Assembly (NCBI GenBank): GCA_026026165.1
Contig: JAPEUD010000003.1
Location: 248,001-312,000, forward strand
Source of the DNA: Sarea resinae
Taxonomy: Eukaryota
DNA length: 64,000 bases
Direction of reading: 5' to 3'
The first letter of the stretch is position 1. Each line of letters begins with the position of its first letter. Shown here piece by piece: positions 42,071 through 55,623 of the stretch. The translations under genes were made by a program, and so were the position numbers. The notes below the pieces were generated by a model. That model ran no database searches. It worked only from the letters and a program-made list of their open reading frames with translations, and was not told the DNA's origin.

Positions 42071-43571
42071 TTAGGCGTCCCACACCATCTCAATAGTAGC
42101 TGTCGCCGTACCCTCTGCGACCTGGATTTGGCGGAATTCAAATCTCTTATCCGCTTCCTTGAATAGGCCGATGAACTCATCCAGTTCACGCTCGCGCGAG
42201 TTTTGCATGGTTAGCATGAGCAGATCCATGCCACTACAATGTTCAGCATTCATTCGATTACCATTGCCAGCAAGAGAGCGTTGTCGTACCGTATGTTTCT
42301 CTCAGCCATGAGCGGCAGAGTATTAGGTTCGGGAAGTACGTGGTCACTTATCAATACCTTGGCACCTGACTTAAGAGCAGGAATCAAATTCTTGATAATC
42401 TTCAGGGCGTACGGGTCGGAATGATTGTGGAAGATATATCGGAAGAGGTAGACGTCGGCCTTGACGGGCTGTTCCGTGAAGAAGTCGTGCGACATAAGAG
42501 TGATGCGGTCAGTAAAATCAGATGGTATGCTGCCCTTGGCTTGCGCGTCTTCAATCACCTCGGGTCGATCCTGTACGACGAAGCTGAGCGAGGGATACTT
42601 TTTGGCCAACTCGACGGTTATATGGCCCTCTGAACCCCCCACATCTACTACCGTTGCATCGCCCAGTTTGCCCCAAGGGTATTTCTCTACGAGGAAGATG
42701 GGCGGGTGGGCGACGTGGGTTTGCATGGACCTCATGGCACCTGCAAAACGTCTGGCCAATTCCGGTTTCTCAGCAAGATACTCATATACGGGCTTGTTGG
42801 TGTTATTGGCAAGGTTGAACGCCTATGGACATTAGTAACGGCATTACTAGAGAAGACTGAAAATGGCTGACAGATTCATTTGGCTCCTGGCTATTGTCAA
42901 ACTGAATCAATGCGTCGACAGTCTGCACTCAAGTCAGTGCTGAAGGGTTTATTGTACCAGAATCGAGACGATGATCAACCTACACGGGCAAACATTCTCC
43001 AATTCCCATCAAAATTGACCCCGAGTCCATCCCGGACATCCGAATTCTCAGCTAGCAAACGCGACGCCGCTGTATGAGCAACGAATCCTTTCCGAGGTTC
43101 GCAAAAGGCATGGTGGTAAGCCATTCCATGGCGTAAGATCCGGCGCAAATTGGGTTCGTAGAGACCACAAAGCTCAGCCAAACGGGGATACGAAATCTCT
43201 TCACCAATCGGAAATTTCGAGGGAATATCAAGGCGGTAGATTAATTCGAGCGCAGTGAGATTATACTATTAAGCCCAGCCCGTGTCAGAACGACACTGAA
43301 CAGGAAAAGGGATGCTTATTGATTGGGCACGTACCGTCGTAGGGCACACAAGGGAGAGAGGCCCCTGGAGGAGATCTTGGAGTTCCACCGAGGCTTGGAT
43401 AGCATCGAGACGAGTCTGATCGATCTCTGATTCTACTGGCAGCCCTAAATCGACGGGTATATCGATATCAAAAGATGGCGAAGGCTTGCCCTGAGAACGC
43501 AAATACTCGTCAATCTTTTTGGTGTTCGTTGAGATGAGATTGGCAAGCTCAACGATTCTAGACGAAGCCAT
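42071..43571 (-). CDS. Class II O-methyltransferase (fungal OmtA/Methyltransf_2 family), 5 exons
   Basis: N-terminus MASSRIVELANLISTNT..PSFD, LRRILR, VAHTAASRLL, VVDVGGSEG, VVQD, HDFFTEQP, YLFRYIFHN, NSRERE. The spliced frame appears intact. Confidence 0.88.
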
Positions 43572-44638
43572 GGTTGATCTTGATATAGTACCAACTGTTG
43601 ATGTATTTCAAGGAGAACGAGAGGGGGCAGGTTCCAGGGTGAGATTCTTTTCCATTTTGGTAAGCGGTATACGCAAGACAAAGTCCCATTTAGATATATC
43701 TGAGGCTCCCGAGTCATTGCGCTGGGCCCTTGATGGTGCAATTGCAGCATCCAAAACCCCTGCCCACATCTGTTTACCTTCCTGCCATTCACGGTAATCA
43801 GCTCACGGACCAAGCCCTTGAGGTCAGCAGCTGGGCGATCGTCGTGCTATATTGATCCCGCGTTAGCAGTGCATCCTGTTATCGATGAGTCATAAGGCCT
43901 CGTAGTGACTTCCGCTGTAGAAAGGCAAGGATGTCAGCTTCAAGCCGCCAACCCCACCTCCGTCGCCTTGTGACCTTTGCTCGCTATCATTGATGTTGCG
44001 CCCCCAAGTCGATGCGACCACCGAAATCGGGAGAAAGTATCAACACCAAGCACAACGACTTTAGATATCATACGGAGAACGTGACCGTTTAGTTTGCTAG
44101 AAGGGCGGTACACAACGGCTTGAAATCGCTTTTGAGGGCCTTGGTCTTCTTGTTTGCTTTTACTCGGACGAGTGCACACAGATGGTCCCTCGGTATCACT
44201 TGGATGGCTTGGGCTGGGGCTGGAGGCTGGAGGCTGGAGGCTGGAACTAGCTACCTACTTAACTACCTAGTATACCTTAGGTAAGGTGCTACGTTACAGC
44301 TTCACTCCAGCTATCCCCATCCTCTATAGCATCATCACTATTCTCATCCTCATCCTCATCATCGTCAGGAACGACAGTACGAATACTATTGTCGTGACGA
44401 GTAGTGCACCCCACCAACATCTAGATATTCATAATTGCCCATCAACGACAATCTGGCGCTTCACTCCCGCATCAAGCTCCTCCTTGCTTCGATCATCCTC
44501 TTCACCACCATATCTCTCATCCTGGCTTACCCGTCGCGGGTTGCATCCCGCATCTCCTCGATCGTTAACCAGATCAGGCCAGCGAACATCAAGCCGCACA
44601 ATTGGTCTTCTTACACGAGCTTCAGACCCATTACGAAC

Positions 44639-46871
44639 ATGAGCATGGCGCCCCAATCTTTCAAGAAGCCCCCTCAGCTCCCGCCAGTCTTCACGGCAAC
44701 GCCTTCATCGCTGATAGAAGATACGAACCGCCTGATTGAGAAGTCGCGAAAAATCCAGGATGATATCGTTGCTGGCGTCAAGCCGGAAGATGCGTCGTTC
44801 CACAAGGTTCTACTGCCGATGGCTTATGATGAAAATACAATGGGACTCGAGACGCACATTATAGGCTTCTACCAAGCGGTCTCCACTGACCAGGCTCTTC
44901 GAGATGCTTCGACCGAAGCCGAGAAGTTGATGAATGACTTCTCTATCGAATCGGCCATGCGAGACGACGTCTTCAATCTTGTGGATGCTGCCTTGAAAAA
45001 GGAAGAGAAGCTAGACCCCGAATCGCAACGCTTGTTGGAAAAGGAGCACAAGGGATACATCAGATATGGGCTTGGGCTGCCTCCGGGCCCACAGCGGGAT
45101 CGGTTCAAGGAGATCAAAAAGAGATTGGGGCAGATTGCCATCGTCTTCTTGAAGAACTTGAATGAGGAGACGAGTGGGCTCTGGTTCACACCAGAAGAGC
45201 TGGATGGTGTGCCAGAGGACGTGATTGCAGGCTTAAAAAAGGGTGAAGGCGAAAATGCTGGAAAGTTATGGCTCACCTTCAAGTACCCAGATCTCTTTCC
45301 AACTTTGAAATACGCCAAAAATGCCGAGGTGCGCAAGAAGGTCTTCGTGCAAAACGAGAACAAGTGCAATCAGAATGTACCCCTCTTCCGAGAAGCAATT
45401 GTTTTGCGGGATGAAGCCGCTAGATTGCTAGGGTACCCCAATCATGCCGCCTTCAAACTGGAAGACACGATGGCGAAGTCGCCAGAAACCGTGGAGACAT
45501 TCTTGGGGGACCTCCGCTCACGTTTGACGGAAGGAGGCAAAGCCGAGATTGAGAAATTGAAGGCCTTGAAAAAGCAAGACCTGGATGCCCGTGAGCAAGG
45601 AAAGGAATTCGATGGAAATTACTATCTCTGGGACAATCGATACTACGATCGTTTGATGCTAGAGCAGGACTATTCTCTTGACCAGCAGAAGGTCGCTGAG
45701 TATTTCCCTCTTCAGACTACGATAAGGGGTATGCTGCAGATCTTTGAGAAGCTCTTCGGTCTTGTCTTCGTCGAAGTTACGGGTGAAGACCGCGACCACC
45801 TTTCGGAAACGGGCAAGGGTTCTGACATCGTCTGGCACGAGGATGTCCAGGTCTTTAGTGTGTGGGATGATGAGGGTGAAGGCAATGGCTTTGTAGGATA
45901 TCTCTACCTTGACCTCTTCCCTCGCGAGGGCAAGTACGGCCACGCGGCGAATTTCAACATGCAATCAGTAAGTGGAAGTCTTCGGTAATTTCGGTGCCAT
46001 AGATACTAATGCTACAAAGGGCTTCATCGACGAGAATGGAAATCGTAGATATCCCGCCACCGCACTCGTGTGCAACTTCTCCAAACCCTCACCGAAGAAG
46101 CCGAGTCTCCTCAAACACGAGGAGGTCGTGACGCTCTTCCACGAACTAGGCCACGGCATCCATGATCTCGTCTCCAAAACGATTTACTCCCGCTTCCACG
46201 GTACCTCAACGGTGCGCGACTTTGTCGAGGCCCCAAGCCAAATGCTGGAGAACTGGTGCTGGACGCCCTCGCAGCTGAAATCGCTAAGCAGGCACTACTC
46301 GACCCTATCTCCGGAATACCTTGGGTCGTACGAGGAGGCCGTGGCTAGAGAAAACAAAGCCGGAGCCGAAAAGCCAGAGGAGCAGATCCCGGACAAGCTG
46401 ATCGCGAACCTGATCTCCACCAAACACGTCAACGACGCCATCTTCAACCTGCGCCAGCTGCACTTCGGCATCTTCGACATGACCGTGCACACGCCGTCGT
46501 CGCACGCCGACGCGCAAGCCCTGCAGATCTCAGCCCTCTACAACTCCCTCCGCAAATCCATCTGCCAGCTCGACGGGCCAGAAGTGCTCGGTGCGGCCCC
46601 GGACTGGGGCAACGGCCAAGCCACGTTCGGCCATCTGATCGGCGGCTACGACGCCGGCTATTACGGGTACCTGAGCAGTCAGGTCTACTCGGCTGACATG
46701 TTCTACTCGGTCTTCAAGAAGGACCCGATGAACCCTGCCGAGGGCCGCCGGTACCGACATACGGTCCTCGAACGTGGCGGGTCCCAGGACGAGATGCAGA
46801 CGCTTGAGGACTTCTTGGGCCGGAAACCGAGCCCCGAGGCTTTCTATCGCGAATTGGGACTTGAGGCGTAG
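44639..46871 (+). CDS. mepB: M3-family metallopeptidase MepB / saccharolysin (thimet oligopeptidase-like), 2 exons
   Basis: YLDLFPREGKYGHAA, zinc motif TLFHELGHGIH, DFVEAPSQMLENW, GYDAGYYGYL. Intron 45968-46019. First ATG at 44639. Confidence 0.93.
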
Positions 46872-48163
46872 CTTAAAAATGAGAAGAGATGAGAAGATGG
46901 ATGGATGGATGGCTGGCTGGCATAGAAAGGAGCTTTAAGGATATCCCAAAAAGTGTCTAGTTCTGCTTTTCCGGCTTTCCCAAGTCTGGGGTCAAGATCG
47001 CAGAGGCCCGAGTCGCAGAGATCGAACTATTGCCTACTTTGGGTAGATCTCTGTTTTCCAAATCACCTAGCCATTTCCAACGTCATCAATCAATCAATCA
47101 ATCGCGTGAGTGCCGACAGTGCTAATCACCGATCGTCACCCATCAGCCATCACCCGTGAGGCCCCACCCACCCGACGTCAAACCCAACATGACGCTCATC
47201 CTGACCCAAAGTACCAATACCAACGCATCAATACATCACGAAAATCCAAAGACCAAAAACAAAAACCTTCTTCCCACCCACCCCCCCCCCTCCCATCCCC
47301 TCCCATCCCCGCAACTACACTGCCCCTCCCTCATACCCCAGCTCCCACCATCTTCACTAGATAGTCAACCCACGACAGACCCGCCACCCCCGTCTTTCAA
47401 GATGTATTCTTAGGGAACTTCTAGAGTAGGAGATAGATGGTGAAGGTAAGGGATGGCGGAATTGGATATCAGTGTGATGAGATTGGTGCTCTGCCTGTCT
47501 ATCTATGCGTCTATCCATCTATCTATCCATCTACCTACATAACAGCTATTACCACTAAACCAAACCGAACCGTCATATCTTACCTCGCCTTACCATCCCT
47601 TACTGCCTAATGCTCTGCTCTGCTCTCCTCTACTCTATCAACCCAGAGTGTTGCCTTTATCAAAACAGCGGTTTTCTCTTATAGTAACACTAGTACTACT
47701 ACCACAACTATTACCACGACTATTACCATTACCAGAAGCGAGGATTCTCTAAAATCCAACTACTACCACTCTGACCCCTCCTGCAAACCAGTCACCCAAA
47801 AAAATATTTTTTTCCTCTAGCTTGCAAAACCAGTAGTGAAGAGTTATTCAAGAGTTATTAAGTTAGCTTTGTTTGATCTATTGCTTCTTTTAGAATGAAT
47901 TGCCTTTGAATTTAAAAACAAGGTCACTAGAGGGTTCTTCTAGTAATAAGTGACAGATGATAATTGCAGACGATAGAATCTGCAGATATAGAAACGATGG
48001 ATTCATGTAGACAAGAGAACAAGACTAGCAAGAGAGGAAAAAAAAAAGAAAAGAAGGAATATCACATGTAAAACAAATGGAAGATATGACATGCGCATGA
48101 TTGGAGCGAGCATCGAACACACAATGGATTGGATTCAAAGCCATGTCATGTTTACATCCAACA

Positions 48164-48235
48164 CCTGACCATACCATACTATACCATACCATACCATATC
48201 ATATCATATCATATCATATCATATCATATCATACC
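48164..48235. repeat. (ACCAT)n/(ATCAT)n pentamer microsatellite
   Basis: Read directly. Confidence 0.9.
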
Positions 48236-48448
48236 AAGGCATGGTGATGATAGCATGACAGAACGTGCAAATAAAAGTGGCCTACTCTACTCTACTCTCC
48301 GCTCTCCACCATGCATACGTACGACAGGGACCAAGGCAAGGTAAGAAGGACCGGTGCCGTTCTTTACAGGGGCTCGCCTCTCTGGGGCAAACGAACCTGC
48401 CCAATTGATGCCAATCGAGAGTGGATCGGCGATCCCGGATCATACTTC

Positions 48449-49395
48449 CGGAGATGCGTCCGTGTAGGTAAATCTGTAGCTCTCCAAGACCCCTTCAGGG
48501 ATGCGGAGATAGCTCCGACGGCGCGGAGGGCCCTGCAGTTGCAGTGGCGCTTTGGCACCGAGAGAGGAGCTGCATTGCAGCCAAGAGATGTTTCTTTTGT
48601 ATTTGTGCCAGTGATGAGGACAGGGAGGTCCTTCGTTCTATGTAAGTCGAAGGACGAGAATGGCGAAATATCTCCAACAACTTTGTCCTTGCCGCAGTAT
48701 TTGCTGCAGCCAGGTTCGACACCTTATTTTCTAAATCTACTAGCTGGCCCATGTCGCCTGACCCCATATCTTGCCATAAGTCGGGACATGATTATGGAGA
48801 AGAGCATTTGCCCCCTCTGCTGTGTGGAGCAGAAAGAAATAGTTGTTGAGGTGAGATCGAATGGCTCGACGGAAGCTTCTTCCGGGCCTGAGAGAGCAGG
48901 GAACACACCTACTGGTATGTATGTCCGGTGAGCTCCGTCCGGTCCATAGTCGCAAGAGCCTGCACATTGCAGACGATCGATAGAGTTGTTGAAGCTAAAC
49001 GCCAACTACCGACACAACATTAGTGCTCCCGTGCGTCAGGACTGAAACGGTCGAACCCGAACGACCTAGGGGTGGAGAATCGATAGGTCTCGGAGATGGC
49101 TCCGCTGTCCCCGCAACATCGCCAACGGATACCTCTGGGTGTTTCTTGCATTTTTGGCTCGTACATACCTCGTAGACAGCCGCAAGGATGAATTGCGACG
49201 CATCAGATCTCTCTTGGTCTCCTGCCATCACTACTGATTTGTTCGCCAGACTTGAGATTTGACACGCCGCGCGGGAACGGAGATGGCTCCGATGTATAGT
49301 TTGGAGATTTGCCGGCGGCGGAGGTAGCTCCGATGGAAATATACCGGGGGCGGAGGTGGCTCCGAAAGAAATTGCTGGGGGCGGAAGTAGCTCCG
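48449..49395. promoter_or_regulatory. Cluster of CGG-N8-CCG quasi-palindromes (consensus CGGARRTRGCTCCG), putative Zn2Cys6 binding sites
   Basis: Copies at 48504, 49091, 49278, 49319, 49351 and 49382, plus a variant at 48449; all in the same orientation. Confidence 0.65.
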
Positions 49396-51250
49396 ACGTA
49401 GAGTTCTTCGTACATCTTAGCCGGGACGGGTGGTCGCTTGCATTGCGCAGACACTTAATTCAAGGTACGCAGCATAGCAAAGATGTGACTGTCATGCGGG
49501 TTGACAAAGGTCGCGAGTGGGTGTTCCTCCGGCCGAAAGTGATCGTTCTCTATCAGAAAAGGAAGTCCGGAGATGGGAAGATGGCGCCCTGGTAGAAGTG
49601 TATCCGTCTGCCTACCTACGTGATAATCCAATGGCCATCGAGAGTAGCGTGGTGCTAAGGTGGATGGTGGCCACGGATGGAGATGGCTTCAATGCCCAGC
49701 ACTCACATCGATGATGCGAGAGGAATGCGCTGTACGAGAAACAGCAGCAGCCTCCTGAGAGAGGCGGAACAGCAGGATTGCAACTGTGAAGCAGCAGATA
49801 TGGAACGGATTAGCATCCGCCGTGTCGACGAGTTGTGCACAAGCAAGAAGCAAAGGGCGCCCGACGATCTCAATGCGGTTGTGGCTGCTGATCTCTATCG
49901 TGGAAGGTCACCACGAGAGGAGCGGACCTGTCATCCTGCCCTCTTACAATTGGAATGGAGAGAGCAAGCGAGGGGCATAGCATATCATGAAGGGAGAAGG
50001 ACAGGATCGGATCGACGGAAGCAATTGAACGGCCTGGTTGGGGAAAAGAGGCTGCAGACCGAACCCCACCTTATCTTCCGAGCGGATCGGGGATCGGGGA
50101 TCGGTGATCGATGATGGCCATGTTGGAGAAAATAGAAGCTCAAGAAGAAATAAAAGTCGAGGATGGGATTAGAGGCATAGGCATGGGATTGTAGAGAATG
50201 CCATCCATGCCGTGGCTTCTCCTTGCTCGAGCGGAAGGTTCGTTGATTGCTTAATAATACGAGAGGGTGGAAAGGGCCCGGGGGAGACTCCGAGATGCCC
50301 AGCCCGGCTCGAGGCTCCGCTCTCATTCCTGTCCACTGCAGACAAGCCAATTCCTCTTCAGCTCTCCTTTCCACTTGCCCCTCCGCTACGTCCGTAGGTA
50401 GATCAGTAGGGAGTAAATGTAGTATCCTTGCCATGGGACCGGAGCGACCGACCGGAAGCACTCCCGTGGGTGCATCCTCTAGGGCAGGATATGACTCTCA
50501 GGATACCTTGTGATTCTCAGTCGTCTTTCCGATCTGACCTATTCGATCTGCAGTCTTTCCTACGTAGTACAATGATGCTAATCATGGATGTATCCATCGG
50601 GTACCGATCGGGTTGGGGTCCAATTACGAAGTACCTCCAGGCCTCCCAGGCCTACCAGGCCTACGAGGGGTACGAGGGGTACCCCTCGTACCCAAGGTAG
50701 CTACCTGCTGTCAAGCTTTTTATATTCGCGAGACGTGGAACGAGGTGCTATTATCTTGGGCCCGAGCCCCTGTGAAATATACTCCGATCGATTCTACGGT
50801 GTTCGAGCGCGGTGGTATCCTGTCTGCTAAACGGAGCACGAAGAAGATTCCAGTCTCTGTCTCTGTCTCTGTCTTGGCCTTGGCATGGTGCCTGGCGAAG
50901 CGGGGGGCGGGCCATGCCTTTAGGTTCATCGGGCTTAGGTCTTAGTTTCAGTCGTCCCAATCGCCACCTTGTTTTCACCATTGTTGAAGTCACTCGTCTG
51001 GAGCGGAGTCCGCCTCCGCGGCCCTTTGCTGGAGGATTGTGAATGCACGCTCGCTCTCACAGCCGTCGCCGCGGTGGCTATGGGCAACATCTCGATTGTA
51101 ATTGTCAATGACCTTAAGAAAACAGCCTTCCAGCCTGTCTGTGCCCCGGCCCATAGCATTCTCCAACACCCAATTTGTGACGAGCGATCGCTGTTGATAC
51201 ACCCTTCCGCATAATACCGTTGTTCCACCTCTGACTGGCGATATGCAGTC

Positions 51251-53583
51251 ATGTCCACCTTTCGCTCTATTCGACCCGCATCGAGCGCGCCGTCTGGTTA
51301 TAGTTCATCGGATCCTTCACAAAGCACACCCCCAGAGTCGAGCGGCAGTGCGTCGAGTAACAAAAAGAGAAAAAGTCCGAGCCATGTGACCGCGAATGCT
51401 TGTATCAATTGCAAGAAGGCGAGAGCAAAGGTACGCCGTCTGCCGCCGTTTTCCCGCCCCTCCCACGCCTCGTTTGTTCCGTTTGCCTGCATTCGATGAC
51501 GGCCCTGCCAAGATATCTTGGAACAGCAAGCTGACTCAATCAATTATGCTCAGTGCGATGGCCAAGAGCCCGAGCCTTGTAGTAGGTGCCAGACGCGAGA
51601 CATCGCATCAACATGCCATTACGAAGTCCATGTGAAGACGGCCAAGGAGGAGATGCTTCGGAGAATACGAGGACTCGAGGCAACGAACTTTGACCTTCGC
51701 GAGTTGAATGAAGATCTCGAGGAAGAGAACCAGGATCTGCGTGGGAGGAACGAGTTGTATCGTTTGAAGGATGACCGGGTCGAATTTATTTTTAATGCGT
51801 TTCGCTCGCACGCGGATGGCGAAGAAATCTTAAATCGACTTAAAAGCGGTCATAGTTATGACGAGATCGCTCAATGGTTGGGGGGTCCTCCCGTTCCCCA
51901 GATAAGTAGACTATCTCCCATATCAGACCAGAAGCTCGCAGAGGTTGTCAGACGATTCCATGAAGCGTCAGACATCGATCCTCGACAAGGAGATCGCGAT
52001 ATCCACCGTTGGACATCCGTCACGAGCGAGGGTCCTCTCGTACGCCACCTACTAGCTCTCTATTTCAGCTGGGTGCATCCAGCACACATGCTCTTTGATG
52101 AGGCGATGTTTATGACCAATTTTGACCATGGCAGAGCGACGCTGTGCTCGCCGGGACTCGTGAATGCTATCTGTGCGACGGCATGCCAGTTGTTCGACGG
52201 GAACAGTGACATGACAGCCAAGACTCTTGGTGACCTGTTTCTAGAAGAGACTCTCCAACACCTCAATACCGAGAGCACGAACCTCCTAACAACCATACAA
52301 GCCTTTGCTGTGCTGTTCTTATGTGGTTGGGGTGCTGGAGAAGGTGCTAAAGCGTCACCATACCTCAGACTTGCGGTGGAGTCACTGAACACGGTCGCGG
52401 CCGAAGGCCTCCCAAACGGCGCTGTAGAAATTTCAGTGTGGGGTATACAAACGTTAAACACGTAAGATTTCCCTTCACCATCGCCTTTCAGATGCGTGAG
52501 CTGATTGTAATAGTGCGTGGGCGGGACTTACCTATCAAAAACCTTTCGCTCCTGCATCCCCACATGCCATTGTGTTCAGAAACATTGATTTGGACAGATC
52601 CGATGCTGACTGGAGAGACTACCGACAACCCGAAGATCTCGGAAGGAAAACAGGCCAGCCCAGCTTTGCCCTTCGCACAGCCTTCGAGCGCGCAAAATTA
52701 TATCGCATCGTGCATGAGACGATCAATATCTGCTGCGGGAGTCGAGGGCGCATTACTGCTAGCTCGGTGCTCCAAGTGTATCGGCGGTTCTTGGAATGGG
52801 AAAAAGAATTGCCGCCAGCCTTAGCAAACGTTGGCCAAGGCGGCGGCTCAGCAATGCCGCACGTTTCCCTACTTCAGTAAGTCCGCAAAGCAAAAAAACA
52901 TAACCAACGTCTATTTCGGGCAAGCGTTGACAGTGAGTAGCATGGAATACTCCACCGCTGTCATCAATCTCTTCCGTCCACTCATAGAATACCCTGAGTT
53001 TTCAGAACCGACGCATACGGATCTAAGATCTCTCTGCCTACATGCTGCTCAATCGGGGTTTGAGAGAGCAGGAAAAACTCACGCGCTGTATGGAAGTCGG
53101 CATCAGCCACCGATTCACTCCCTTTGTCTTCTCCACCTCTCCGACCTCATGCTTCGCCTTAAGCCTCCACAGCAGAATCCTTTTGAGATCATGCACTTCT
53201 GCACGGCGAGTCTGCAGGAAGCCAGCGCCGGTTTCACAGTATGCGCAATCTTCTTACAGATGTTTCGGCAAGCCGTCCATGAATACGGATTAACACCACC
53301 TCAGGAGACCGAGGAGAGGGGTGGGCCGAGAAAGACTTTCGCTCCGTACGACTTACTGAATGCTTGTACACGTTTAACGTATGCTCAGCCTGCCGAGATG
53401 ATCGCGAGCAGGATAGATCCCGCGATGGGTCATGATTTTGCCAGAGAGTGGCAGCAACTCATTGGCGACGTGCATAGGGATAAACCTGACCGGCATGGTC
53501 AAGGTGACAGTGGTGGTGGTAGTAGTAGTAGTAGTAGTGGCGACCTCAAGTACATGCAGATCAATGCTCTTCTCAACGAGTAA
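51251..53583 (+). CDS. Zn2Cys6 transcription factor, NirA-like, with fungal TF middle domain, 4 exons
   Basis: ANACINCKKARAK|CDGQEPEPCSRCQTRDIASTCHY, coiled-coil dimerisation segment, WTSVT..LVRHLLALYFSWVHP, CSPGLVNAICA, C-terminal MQINALLNE. GT-AG introns at about 51431, 52462 and 52877. Confidence 0.88.
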
Positions 53584-55623
53584 GAGTAAAGCCCCTTGAT
53601 GATTTTTCCAATTCTGTTTTCTTGTGCAAAGTATCCATGTTAGCACTAGCATTGTTTGGCGTTGTTATCATCTTGCGACTGCGCTCTATAGCTTATGAGC
53701 GATTCTTTGAAACAAAGTGGACGGGAAGAGCACGAGGAAGGAAGAAGAGGGGGAGAGGAGGAAGAGAAAGAGGGAAAAGAACGAGGAAGAGGAAGAGGAA
53801 GAGAAACGGCAAGGGAGGAGGGTAGATAGATCGATCGATGGCAAATGGTAGATGGTGGCAGTAGTGCCTGCATTTGGACCCCGGGCTTCCATTCATTTCA
53901 AGTCCCCACGATGTGTACGTCAGAGGGATTGATCCACAACACTCGTCGGCATCTGGGTCCCCCTGCTTTCTCTATGGATATCACGCAAATAGCATTGATG
54001 AAGACATGACTATCAGATGACTACCTAGGTACGGATCCAGCTGCTACAGTACTTCACGATCGGAATGAGTTGACAGATCGGAGATCTCTCTCTCTAGAAC
54101 GAGAGGGATTCAGCTGGAGGGGGGCAGGACATCCAATGTCAGTCACGAATGGAAGTTACATGCTATCATAGTACGGAGTACTGCGCAGTAAATCCGTCGA
54201 ACTTTGTTCCTTGATCGACGAAGGGGCGTTAGGCACCGTACTTCAGAGTACCTACAAGAGACATCTCTCAAGGTACCTTCAACCCAACCGCGAGTCTGGC
54301 AATGACCTACCCAGCCATCAGTGCTCGAGTCTCTTCTCGTACCTGCTTGAATGGAGCCTTGGAATTGGCTTTGCGGTGCCGACCCTGACGAGGTGGACCC
54401 ACCCGATCCCGTCGCAATAGATCATTACTGCGGAAAAGCCTCCGGACCAATGATATCCATACAATTTCATCAGTCCGTCCTCGTCCATCGCGCCAGCTTG
54501 GAGAAGGAGCATCGGGGAGCTTTCGTTGCAGGGAGCTTCCGGTGATATAAGGGACACCAGAAGCACAAATTGAACGCGAGTCTGATCTCCCCTTCTCCCT
54601 CTACTGACCATGATGTGATCAACCTGGATGGATATGTCGCCCAACAAGAGTCCATCAAGGGCGGAGCCAGCTCGAAGACTTTTGAGTCAGGCGAGCGCTG
54701 GCACCTCAACGTCTCATGGACAAACAGCTGCTACAGGAGGAATGCGATGCTGCACACCCCATCAATGTGGTAGCATCTGTCCGCTCCCTCTATTGACTCT
54801 CTCGCGAAGCTTCAATCAAGTTCAGGATCTCGAGGTGATCCGTTGCCAGATCATGCGCGTAATTTCCGTGTATGACCGCGCTCGGAAGGATTATTTCTTA
54901 CTCACCGGCAGTATAGATGAGCTTCTTCATTGACAGTTTCTGTCCTTTGCTGCCATAGTCTCATTTCAAGCTACTTACTAGGTAACTACACAACCACTTT
55001 TTTCCTATCTGATCTTTCCAGGTCCCCACCTTGCCTTTCCTTCTCCGGAGTCTTTTGGACCGTACAGAAGCCTACTAGGTTCCTCGCTCTTTCTCGAAAA
55101 CTACCAGGATGGTGTGTGCTTCCAGAGATAGTCAGGACGTGAAAGTCACACTCTCGCCCCCCACAGTGTACCAGCCTCTAGCCTTGGTCTATATTGCAAT
55201 ACCTCATGACTGGTCTGCCTACGACTCTGATCGCTGTCACAGCTAGGAACAGGTAACAGGTCTCCTCCCCATACTCGACGAAGACTGACATCTTGTAAAG
55301 TGGACTACCCCTTGCGGGCCCGAAGAGGAAGCCGAGACGTTCGTCCCCACTCTTTCCTGTCAAAACAAGTTAAGACCTTCGCTTTTTGAAATTTCGATAT
55401 AGAGCATGCTATAGCCTTTGATTAAATTCAAAGTGATCGATATGCCTTCAAGATCCCTCGACGCTTTGCCCATCCCTGAAAAGTTTTTTCTCCCTTCAGT
55501 CCACTGGAAAAGTCAAGAAGGGCAGGAAGATCAGGGTTATACGCTGCCTGACTACACTATCTGTTTTTCAGCAACTTACGAAATCTAATATCATTCTCCG
55601 ATACTCTACCTTTCGGTCGACAG

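What the first reader, a model, noticed from the sequence alone, without database searches (positions are those of the whole stretch)
48449..49395. Phased array of near-identical CGG-N8-CCG sites in a 4.4-kb gene-free region upstream of a Zn2Cys6 factor (candidate autoregulatory switch)
Seen: CGGAGATAGCTCCG (48504), CGGAGATGGCTCCG (49091 and 49278), CGGAGGTAGCTCCG (49319), CGGAGGTGGCTCCG (49351), CGGAAGTAGCTCCG (49382) and a variant CGGAGATGCGTCCG (48449). Looser CGG-N8-CCG sites lie at 50279 and 50453. The DNA between copies is largely unrelated, so this is not a simple tandem duplication. The last four are spaced 41, 32 and 31 bp: not multiples of 3, which argues against a coding repeat, and close to 4, 3 and 3 helical turns. 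Established: Zn2Cys6 dimers bind inverted CGG triplets with fixed spacers (Gal4 N11, Ppr1 N6, Put3 N10). Inference: the only recognisable gene with its 5' end facing this region is the NirA-like Zn2Cys6 factor at 51251, so this may be a cooperative, possibly autoregulatory enhancer. It could instead drive an unannotated transcript.
Basis: partly seen in the sequence, partly recalled or inferred. Interest (0 to 1): 0.7.

Follow-up and report, generated by a model that had tools for sequence, protein, structure and literature searches.

The report
Conserved self-control sites of fungal regulator
Seven copies of a short palindromic DNA site sit upstream of an unstudied fungal transcription-factor gene, and the same site recurs upstream of that gene's counterparts in distantly related fungi, which suggests the factor binds its own control region.

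Summary
All seven sites are present at the stated coordinates. The conserved core is CGGA-N6-TCCG (= CGG-N8-CCG). The genome has 391 such sites, about 1 per 65 kb; seven lie here within 947 bp, and all 4 pairs within 60 bp are here. The region is single-copy with no coding evidence. In relatives, with the window left out, CGGA-N6-TCCG ranked first of 4352 palindromic dyads in the 2 kb upstream of the 51251 gene's homologues: 9 of 19 independent loci against 0.61 expected, Bonferroni 5.6e-6, with nothing significant downstream. One lineage carries its own cluster of 7. So this is a real, conserved cis-element tied to this gene family. Self-binding is the best reading but is inferred, not shown. 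Corrections: the last three or four copies are a degenerate 32-bp tandem repeat, helical phasing is not kept in relatives, the factor is not NirA, and no genome-wide regulon is visible. Verdict: a new member of a known kind, with a testable binding motif for an uncharacterised Zn2Cys6 group.

The parts
48449..48462 (.). CGGA-N6-TCCG site 1 (variant spacer)
48504..48517 (.). CGGA-N6-TCCG site 2
49091..49104 (.). CGGA-N6-TCCG site 3
49278..49291 (.). CGGA-N6-TCCG site 4
49302..49396 (.). Degenerate tandem repeat of three 31-32 bp units, carrying sites 5, 6 and 7 (49319, 49351, 49382); each spacer holds a decayed half-site-like word (TGGAGAT, TGGAAAT, AGAAAT)
   Evidence: family D4 (84%, 72%)
49806..49819 (.).
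48870..48884 (.). CGGA-N7-TCCG (CGG-N9-CCG) site; others at 48436 and 51004; role uncertain
50754..51250 (+). Probable long 5' leader of the factor's mRNA with six upstream ATGs (uORFs of 12-48 codons)
   Evidence: RNA-library contigs cover 50754-50978 and 51019-51342 (strand and continuity not shown)
51251..53583 (+). Zn2Cys6 transcription factor gene, 697 aa, exons 51251-51430, 51554-52461, 52514-52876, 52941-53583; cluster CX2CX6CX7CX2CX8C split by intron 1; Fungal_trans domain
   Evidence: gene model; PF04082 E 8.6e-7; intron 3 seen as a GT..AG joint in an RNA run; introns 1 and 2 inferred from splice signals and likeness to full-length relatives
44435..46871 (+). Upstream neighbour: peptidase M3 gene (its 3' end faces the sites); syntenic in L017, L030/L032 and L037/L041/L061

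Best explanation
The sites are a homotypic cluster of binding sites for a Zn2Cys6 homodimer, core CGGA-N6-TCCG, in the upstream control region of the 51251 gene, and the protein that binds them is most likely that gene's own product (autoregulation). Shown: the sites are real, non-coding, unique as a cluster in the genome, and the same dyad is enriched upstream of homologues in several fungal lineages. From established knowledge (recalled): inverted CGG triplets at fixed spacing are bound by Zn2Cys6 dimers. Inferred: the binder is the downstream factor; occupancy 1.9-2.8 kb upstream of the ATG feeds back on its transcription, more likely positively; and this genome raised its site number from the usual one or two to eight, partly by local tandem duplication, which would strengthen or sharpen the feedback.
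For: Unbiased scan with the window excluded: CGGA-N6-TCCG first of 4352 dyads; 9 of 19 loci against 0.61 expected; p 1.3e-9, Bonferroni 5.6e-6; with stricter collapsing 6 of 15, Bonferroni 0.025; no dyad significant downstream. Spacer-specific: N6 has 10 sites in 9 of 19 loci, all other spacers 0-16 have at most 3. Control 2-kb tiles: 5 of 66 exact, 14 of 66 relaxed, against 9 of 19 and 14 of 19 upstream. A matrix built only from the seven window sites scores upstream regions above control tiles (p 0.0015). The site aligns 14/14 between L036 and L044 and 12/14 between L037 and L042 (changes in the spacer only) against about 60% background identity. It occurs in three separate branches of the family tree and in different gene neighbourhoods, so it follows this gene rather than a neighbour. 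L021/L063 carry 7 sites each. The NirA-type relative and the other C6 gene checked in this genome have none in 13 and 20 kb.
Against: No binding data; conservation cannot tell self-binding from a conserved upstream regulator. 8 of 19 clusters have no exact site in any member and 2 of 19 not even a relaxed one. The site is broken in L066 and L057 while near-identical cluster mates keep it. Loci are related, so they are not fully independent, and the significance falls with stricter collapsing. In the branch holding L018-L029/L033/L063 a second C6 gene shares the upstream region head-to-head, and five of the seven L021 sites lie beyond that gene's 3' end. A. nidulans ClrB and B. cinerea BcSpd1 are reported to bind CGGN8CCG-containing DNA. 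The motif is not enriched genome-wide (391 against 434). Part of the copy number here may be neutral duplication.
Confidence: 0.6

Rival explanations
1. The sites are functional but are read by a different, conserved Zn2Cys6 regulator (ClrB/CLR-2 type, BcSpd1 type, or the small C6 factor that is the head-to-head neighbour in one branch), making the 51251 gene a downstream node of a cascade.
For: ClrB binds CGGN8CCG in A. nidulans (passages of PMC13267753); BcSpd1 binds a fragment with CGGN8CCG (passages of PMC9280406). A second C6 gene lies head-to-head in 16 of 53 loci.
Against: Sites are also present in loci where no such neighbour was found (L016, L017, L036, L037, L042, L048 and the window), although some of these contigs are short. 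The one AA9 gene of this genome has no CGG-N8-CCG in its 3.6-kb locus. The neighbour's copy in this genome has no CGGA-N6-TCCG in 20 kb. No other dense cluster exists in the genome.
Confidence: 0.25
2. One or two ancestral sites are functional, but the large array in this genome is neutral: a decaying minisatellite or local duplication with no added regulatory effect.
For: The last three units are a tandem repeat; the region is rich in simple repeats; most relatives have only one or two sites.
Against: Within the repeat the site is kept better than the spacer, and sites 1-3 have unrelated flanks. A second lineage built a cluster of seven with different spacers and flanks.
Confidence: 0.12
3. 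The array drives an unannotated transcript, or is a transposon or coding remnant, unrelated to the 51251 gene.
For: One short, low-depth contig of an RNA library lies at about 49100-49250 (depth 2.1). The sites are far from the ATG.
Against: Single copy; 0 of 9 frames tested in or bordering the intergenic region have a Pfam match; no intergenic frame of 90 aa or more matches any of 53 related loci; no Rfam match; the motif follows the factor gene across lineages.
Confidence: 0.03

Closest known systems
A. nidulans ClrB site CGGN8CCG (PMC13267753, passages read)
   Same: Same triplet geometry: inverted CGG with an 8-nt spacer, bound by a Zn2Cys6 protein; both triplets are needed.
   Different: ClrB sites are reported in cellulase/mannosidase promoters; here the core is longer (CGGA..TCCG), clustered, and upstream of a transcription-factor gene. 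The N. crassa and M. thermophila CLR-2 motif is N11.
A. nidulans SclB autoregulation (PMC13059802: abstract, passages, sections 6 and 9; PMC6078315: passages)
   Same: A filamentous-fungal C6 factor that binds and controls its own gene in vivo; some relatives of the 51251 protein have SclB's CX2CX6CX5CX2CX8C spacing.
   Different: SclB is 556 aa with one intron and its motif is AATTCCCCG, which is absent here; this protein is 697 aa, with three introns and CX7 spacing. No sequence comparison was possible.
NirA/NIT-4 and Fluffy (FL) family of Zn2Cys6 factors
   Same: Database labels of homologues are 'nit-4', 'nirA-related' and 'fluffy'; the NirA site CTCCGHGG contains the same CTCCG half-site (motif recalled; term found in 4 papers, listing only). 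FL binding CGG-N9-CCG is recalled and was not confirmed.
   Different: A separate NirA-type gene exists at G000:C98 (identified from recalled sequence likeness) and has no such site. None of the seven sites matches CTCCGHGG (read).
Autoregulated Zn2Cys6 factors in general, e.g. AlcR, Pdr3, Upc2 (recalled, no call)
   Same: Binding sites for the factor in its own promoter giving feedback.
   Different: Those are induced by known ligands and have known regulons; here neither is known, and the site is traced across several fungal classes.

Membership tests
Zn2Cys6 homodimer binding site (inverted CGG, fixed spacer) | Two inverted CGG triplets with one fixed spacer | tested here: met
   All seven are CGG-N8-CCG; only this spacer is enriched in relatives
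Zn2Cys6 homodimer binding site (inverted CGG, fixed spacer) | Non-coding position upstream of a gene, conserved in relatives | tested here: met
   9 of 19 loci, Bonferroni 5.6e-6; no coding evidence
Zn2Cys6 homodimer binding site (inverted CGG, fixed spacer) | Bound by a Zn2Cys6 protein | not testable with these tools
   needs EMSA, DAP-seq or ChIP
Autoregulatory element | Site follows the factor's gene through duplication and change of neighbourhood | tested here: met
   present in three branches of the tree and in different neighbourhoods; absent in exact form from 8 of 19 clusters
Autoregulatory element | The factor binds the site and changes its own transcription | not testable with these tools
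   no binding or expression data
Helically phased cooperative array | Spacings are whole helical turns and are conserved | tested here: not met
   Last four sites are in phase (p about 0.005 at 10.5 bp) but the spacing is a repeat unit; all seven give p 0.03-0.13; L021/L063 spacings 4.6, 4.7, 6.3 turns with an 18-bp indel
Zn2Cys6 transcription factor (gene at 51251) | C6 cluster and Fungal_trans domain | tested here: met
   cluster read in the gene model; PF04082; PF00172 on full-length relatives
NirA/NIT-4 orthologue | Is the genome's NirA orthologue; sites match CTCCGHGG | tested here: not met
   a different gene at C98 has the NirA-type cluster (identification rests on recall); none of the seven sites matches
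SclB orthologue | 556 aa, one intron, CX2CX6CX5CX2CX8C, motif AATTCCCCG | tested here: not met
   697 aa, three introns, CX7 spacing; motif absent from 46872-51250; sequence orthology itself could not be tested
ClrB target promoter | CGGN8CCG shared with cellulase promoters of the same genome | tested here: inconclusive
   1 AA9 gene, no site in its 3.6-kb locus; GH7 search found nothing and is uninformative
Transposon subterminal repeats | Other copies in the genome, terminal inverted repeats | tested here: not met
   single copy (whose search skips common words); no long inverted repeat bounding the array

The most novel reading that the evidence does not exclude
An undescribed, ancient positive-feedback module: a Zn2Cys6 group found in Dothideomycetes, lichen-forming fungi, Leotiomycetes and Sarea binds CGGA-N6-TCCG upstream of its own gene, and lineages tune the loop by gaining sites independently (eight here, seven in L021/L063), making a bistable developmental or lifestyle switch whose main high-affinity target is the factor itself.
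Probability: 0.15. Interest if true: 0.72.

Novelty: new member of a known kind. Interest (0 to 1): 0.48.

Why it matters
Most Zn2Cys6 factors of filamentous fungi have no known binding site (general knowledge). This gives a specific, testable motif for an uncharacterised group that spans several ascomycete classes, including resin and lichen fungi that are hard to study genetically. A cis-element that stays detectable where the proteins are only 30-45% identical points to a long-kept regulatory link. Independent gains of site clusters give a natural test of how site number shapes feedback. The mechanism class itself, an autoregulated zinc-cluster factor, is well known.

Tried and rejected
Regulon search: CGGA-N6-TCCG 391 against control 434, CGGAR-N4-YTCCG 132 against 168, CGGA-N4-GCTCCG 62 against 81: no enrichment. 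I fetched 20 of the 56 CGGA-N4-GCTCCG sites outside the array (chosen by likeness to the array); by eye about eight fall inside long reading frames and no common function showed. The only other exact consensus match (G000:C13) is a lone site with no long frame nearby. Three looser pairs at 61-400 bp exist elsewhere, equal to the control count of 3. The window's upstream region has no alignable likeness to relatives beyond simple repeats and one 20-mer, so conservation is of the motif only. Rfam: nothing. PDB: only generic Hap1/Gal4/Put3/Cep3 matches. Atlas: generic Zn-cluster clusters. RNA: only contigs of one metatranscriptome; gaps in cover and the one piece at about 49100-49250 decide nothing. 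No characterised member of the group could be named: cluster names were not available, and the BcSpd1 supplements held as text gave no primers or probes (6 files searched; the sheet with primers was not among the hits). Literature searches for the motif and for a described conserved autoregulatory site found none (open-licence library only). Earlier findings of this scan: nothing. The tree is the quick one; the careful search did not finish.

Full report
Observation. All seven 14-mers are at the stated positions, with spacings 55, 587, 187, 41, 32 and 31. CGG-N8-CCG alone is not unusual in the window (25 against 18.3 expected; 7 of 100 shuffles reach it), but 10 of the 25 lie in 46872-51250, and 8 of the window's 9 CGGA-N6-TCCG sites do. 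The genome has 391 CGGA-N6-TCCG sites in 25.5 Mb (control 434), about one per 65 kb, against seven in 947 bp here. All 4 pairs within 60 bp of each other are in this array (control 1). The narrow consensus has 7 matches genome-wide, 6 here. One part of the description is wrong: the last three units are a degenerate 31-32 bp tandem repeat (84% and 72%), so their spacing is a repeat length. The flanks of the first three sites are unrelated.

Setting. Upstream lies a peptidase M3 gene ending at 46871. Downstream, a four-exon gene at 51251-53583 encodes a 697-aa Zn2Cys6 protein with a Fungal_trans domain. The identical database protein is labelled Sarea resinae and starts after the zinc cluster, probably a mis-annotation. 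Contigs of one RNA library from a strain about 97% alike cover the gene in pieces, show intron 3 spliced, and reach back to 50754; contigs do not give strand or start. The intergenic DNA is single-copy, has no Rfam match, no Pfam match in 9 of 9 frames tested and no translated match in 53 related loci.

The factor's family. Homologues at about 33-47% identity are named from Dothideomycetes, lichen-forming fungi, Pycnora, Candelina and Leotiomycetes. In a quick tree of 51 rows, 43 form one group with support 100, apart from Sordariomycete relatives (2 of those 51 are short partial rows, and the careful tree did not finish). Shared neighbours (peptidase M3 and two other window genes) confirm orthology for L017, L030/L032, the L037 cluster and others. 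The factor is not NirA: a different gene at G000:C98 has the NirA-type zinc cluster (recognised from recall) and no CGGA-N6-TCCG in 13 kb. I could not name any characterised member.

The decisive test: conservation. A metagenome scan gave 53 loci, which collapse to 23 clusters at 85% DNA identity. Four clusters had under 400 bp upstream and were dropped, leaving 19; one representative of each was chosen by upstream length, blind to the motif. With the window excluded, all 4352 dyads X-Nk-rc(X) (4-mers, k 0-16) were scored in the 2 kb upstream, given each locus's own half-site counts. CGGA-N6-TCCG came first: 9 of 19 loci against 0.61 expected, p 1.3e-9, Bonferroni 5.6e-6; the next dyad was not significant, and none was in the 2 kb downstream. 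At 75% collapsing it was still first: 6 of 15, Bonferroni 0.025. Other spacers reach at most 3 loci, and everted and direct arrangements at most 3 and 4. CGG-N9-CCG is also frequent upstream (17 sites in 8 of 19 loci, against 49 in 215 kb of control), so N9 may be tolerated. Control tiles carry the exact site in 5 of 66 and a relaxed form in 14 of 66, against 9 of 19 and 14 of 19 upstream; counting any cluster member gives 11 and 17 of 19. A matrix from the seven window sites alone also separates upstream from control (p 0.0015). The site stands out as a footprint: 14/14 in L036 against L044 and 12/14 in L037 against L042, in about 60% background identity. L021/L063 have seven sites each within 4 kb, with unrelated flanks.

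Against. 8 of 19 clusters lack an exact site and 2 lack even a relaxed one. L066 and L057 have broken sites where near-identical mates keep them; this may be real loss or assembly error. The loci are related, so the p-values overstate independence. In 16 of 53 loci, all in one branch, a small second C6 gene lies head-to-head, and five of the L021 sites are beyond its 3' end. Phasing is not kept: L021/L063 spacings are 4.6-6.3 turns for the close pairs and differ by an 18-bp indel. In the window the last four sites are in phase (p about 0.005) but all seven only weakly (p 0.03-0.13). No regulon is visible by motif count or among 20 inspected sites.

How it most likely works. Inverted CGG triplets at fixed spacing are the standard site of Zn2Cys6 dimers (recalled). 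A site of that kind that follows one Zn2Cys6 gene through speciation, duplication and change of neighbours, and that forms its only dense cluster in the genome upstream of that gene, is most simply explained by the gene's product binding it. I put autoregulation at 0.6, a different conserved regulator at 0.25, a mostly neutral expansion around one functional site at 0.12, and an unrelated transcript or remnant at 0.03. The sign of the feedback, any inducer and any bistability are not shown.

Comparison with what is known. A. nidulans ClrB binds CGGN8CCG (PMC13267753, passages) and BcSpd1 binds a fragment containing it (PMC9280406, passages; six supplementary files searched without finding primers or probes), so the geometry is known, and these are the main rival binders. 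The one AA9 gene here has no site in its 3.6-kb locus, which is weak evidence. SclB is a precedent for C6 autoregulation in a filamentous fungus, but it differs in length, introns and motif (PMC13059802: abstract, passages, sections 6 and 9; PMC6078315: passages; motif absent here). PMC13609398 and PMC3991626 (passages) added nothing on this motif. Searches for the motif and for a described conserved autoregulatory site of this kind found none in the open-licence library; most subscription papers and motif databases were not searched.

Verdict. A real, conserved cis-regulatory element with a testable motif for an uncharacterised Zn2Cys6 group, probably autoregulatory; a new member of a known kind. 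The 'phased switch' reading is not supported as stated, but a feedback loop tuned by site number remains possible. Interest 0.48.

Noticed in passing
window 51251-51620; protein P0001: The public protein model (621 aa) starts in another frame and lacks the zinc cluster; a 123-nt GT-AG intron at 51431-51553 gives a full cluster like the relatives'. Probably a mis-annotation.
   Followed up: partly
L019:7005-8034, L021:7129-8183 and 14 other loci: In one branch of the family a small second Zn2Cys6 gene lies head-to-head 1.7-2.7 kb upstream, forming a pair of transcription factors on one shared region. Its copy in this genome is unlinked (G000:C66:144010-145118).
   Followed up: partly
window 50754-51250: Probable 5' leader of at least 500 nt with six upstream ATGs, one overlapping the main start out of frame (51243): possible translational control.
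   Followed up: partly
window about 49100-49250: One low-depth contig of an RNA library lies between sites 3 and 4, with 1-nt and 8-nt insertions relative to the window; could be DNA carry-over or an upstream transcript.
   Followed up: no
window 54431-54444: The window's only other CGGA-N6-TCCG site lies about 850 bp downstream of the factor's stop codon.
   Followed up: no
L078:3017 (G000:C22:18916): A close match to the site lies about 1 kb upstream of a glycosyltransferase family 20 (trehalose-6-phosphate synthase type) gene: a candidate target, not validated.
   Followed up: partly
L098:1501 and 1585 (G000:C63:252155-252252): A pair of CGGA-N6-TCCG sites 84 bp apart, not assigned to a gene.
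   Followed up: no
window 50796-50815; L030/L032 upstream: A 20-mer about 450 bp upstream of the ATG matches 19/20 in the syntenic loci L030/L032 (E 0.17 each): perhaps a second conserved element, perhaps chance.
   Followed up: no
window 50652-50700: A 22-bp inverted repeat and GTAC-rich palindromes; the dyad TACC-N4-GGTA was second in the scan of relatives (4 of 19) but not significant after correction.
   Followed up: no
window 51014-51021: One match to the recalled NirA site CTCCGHGG, overlapping a CGGA-N7-TCCG site, in the probable leader.
   Followed up: no
window 42250-43607, minus strand: An O-methyltransferase gene (PF00891), head-to-head with the peptidase M3 gene.
   Followed up: no
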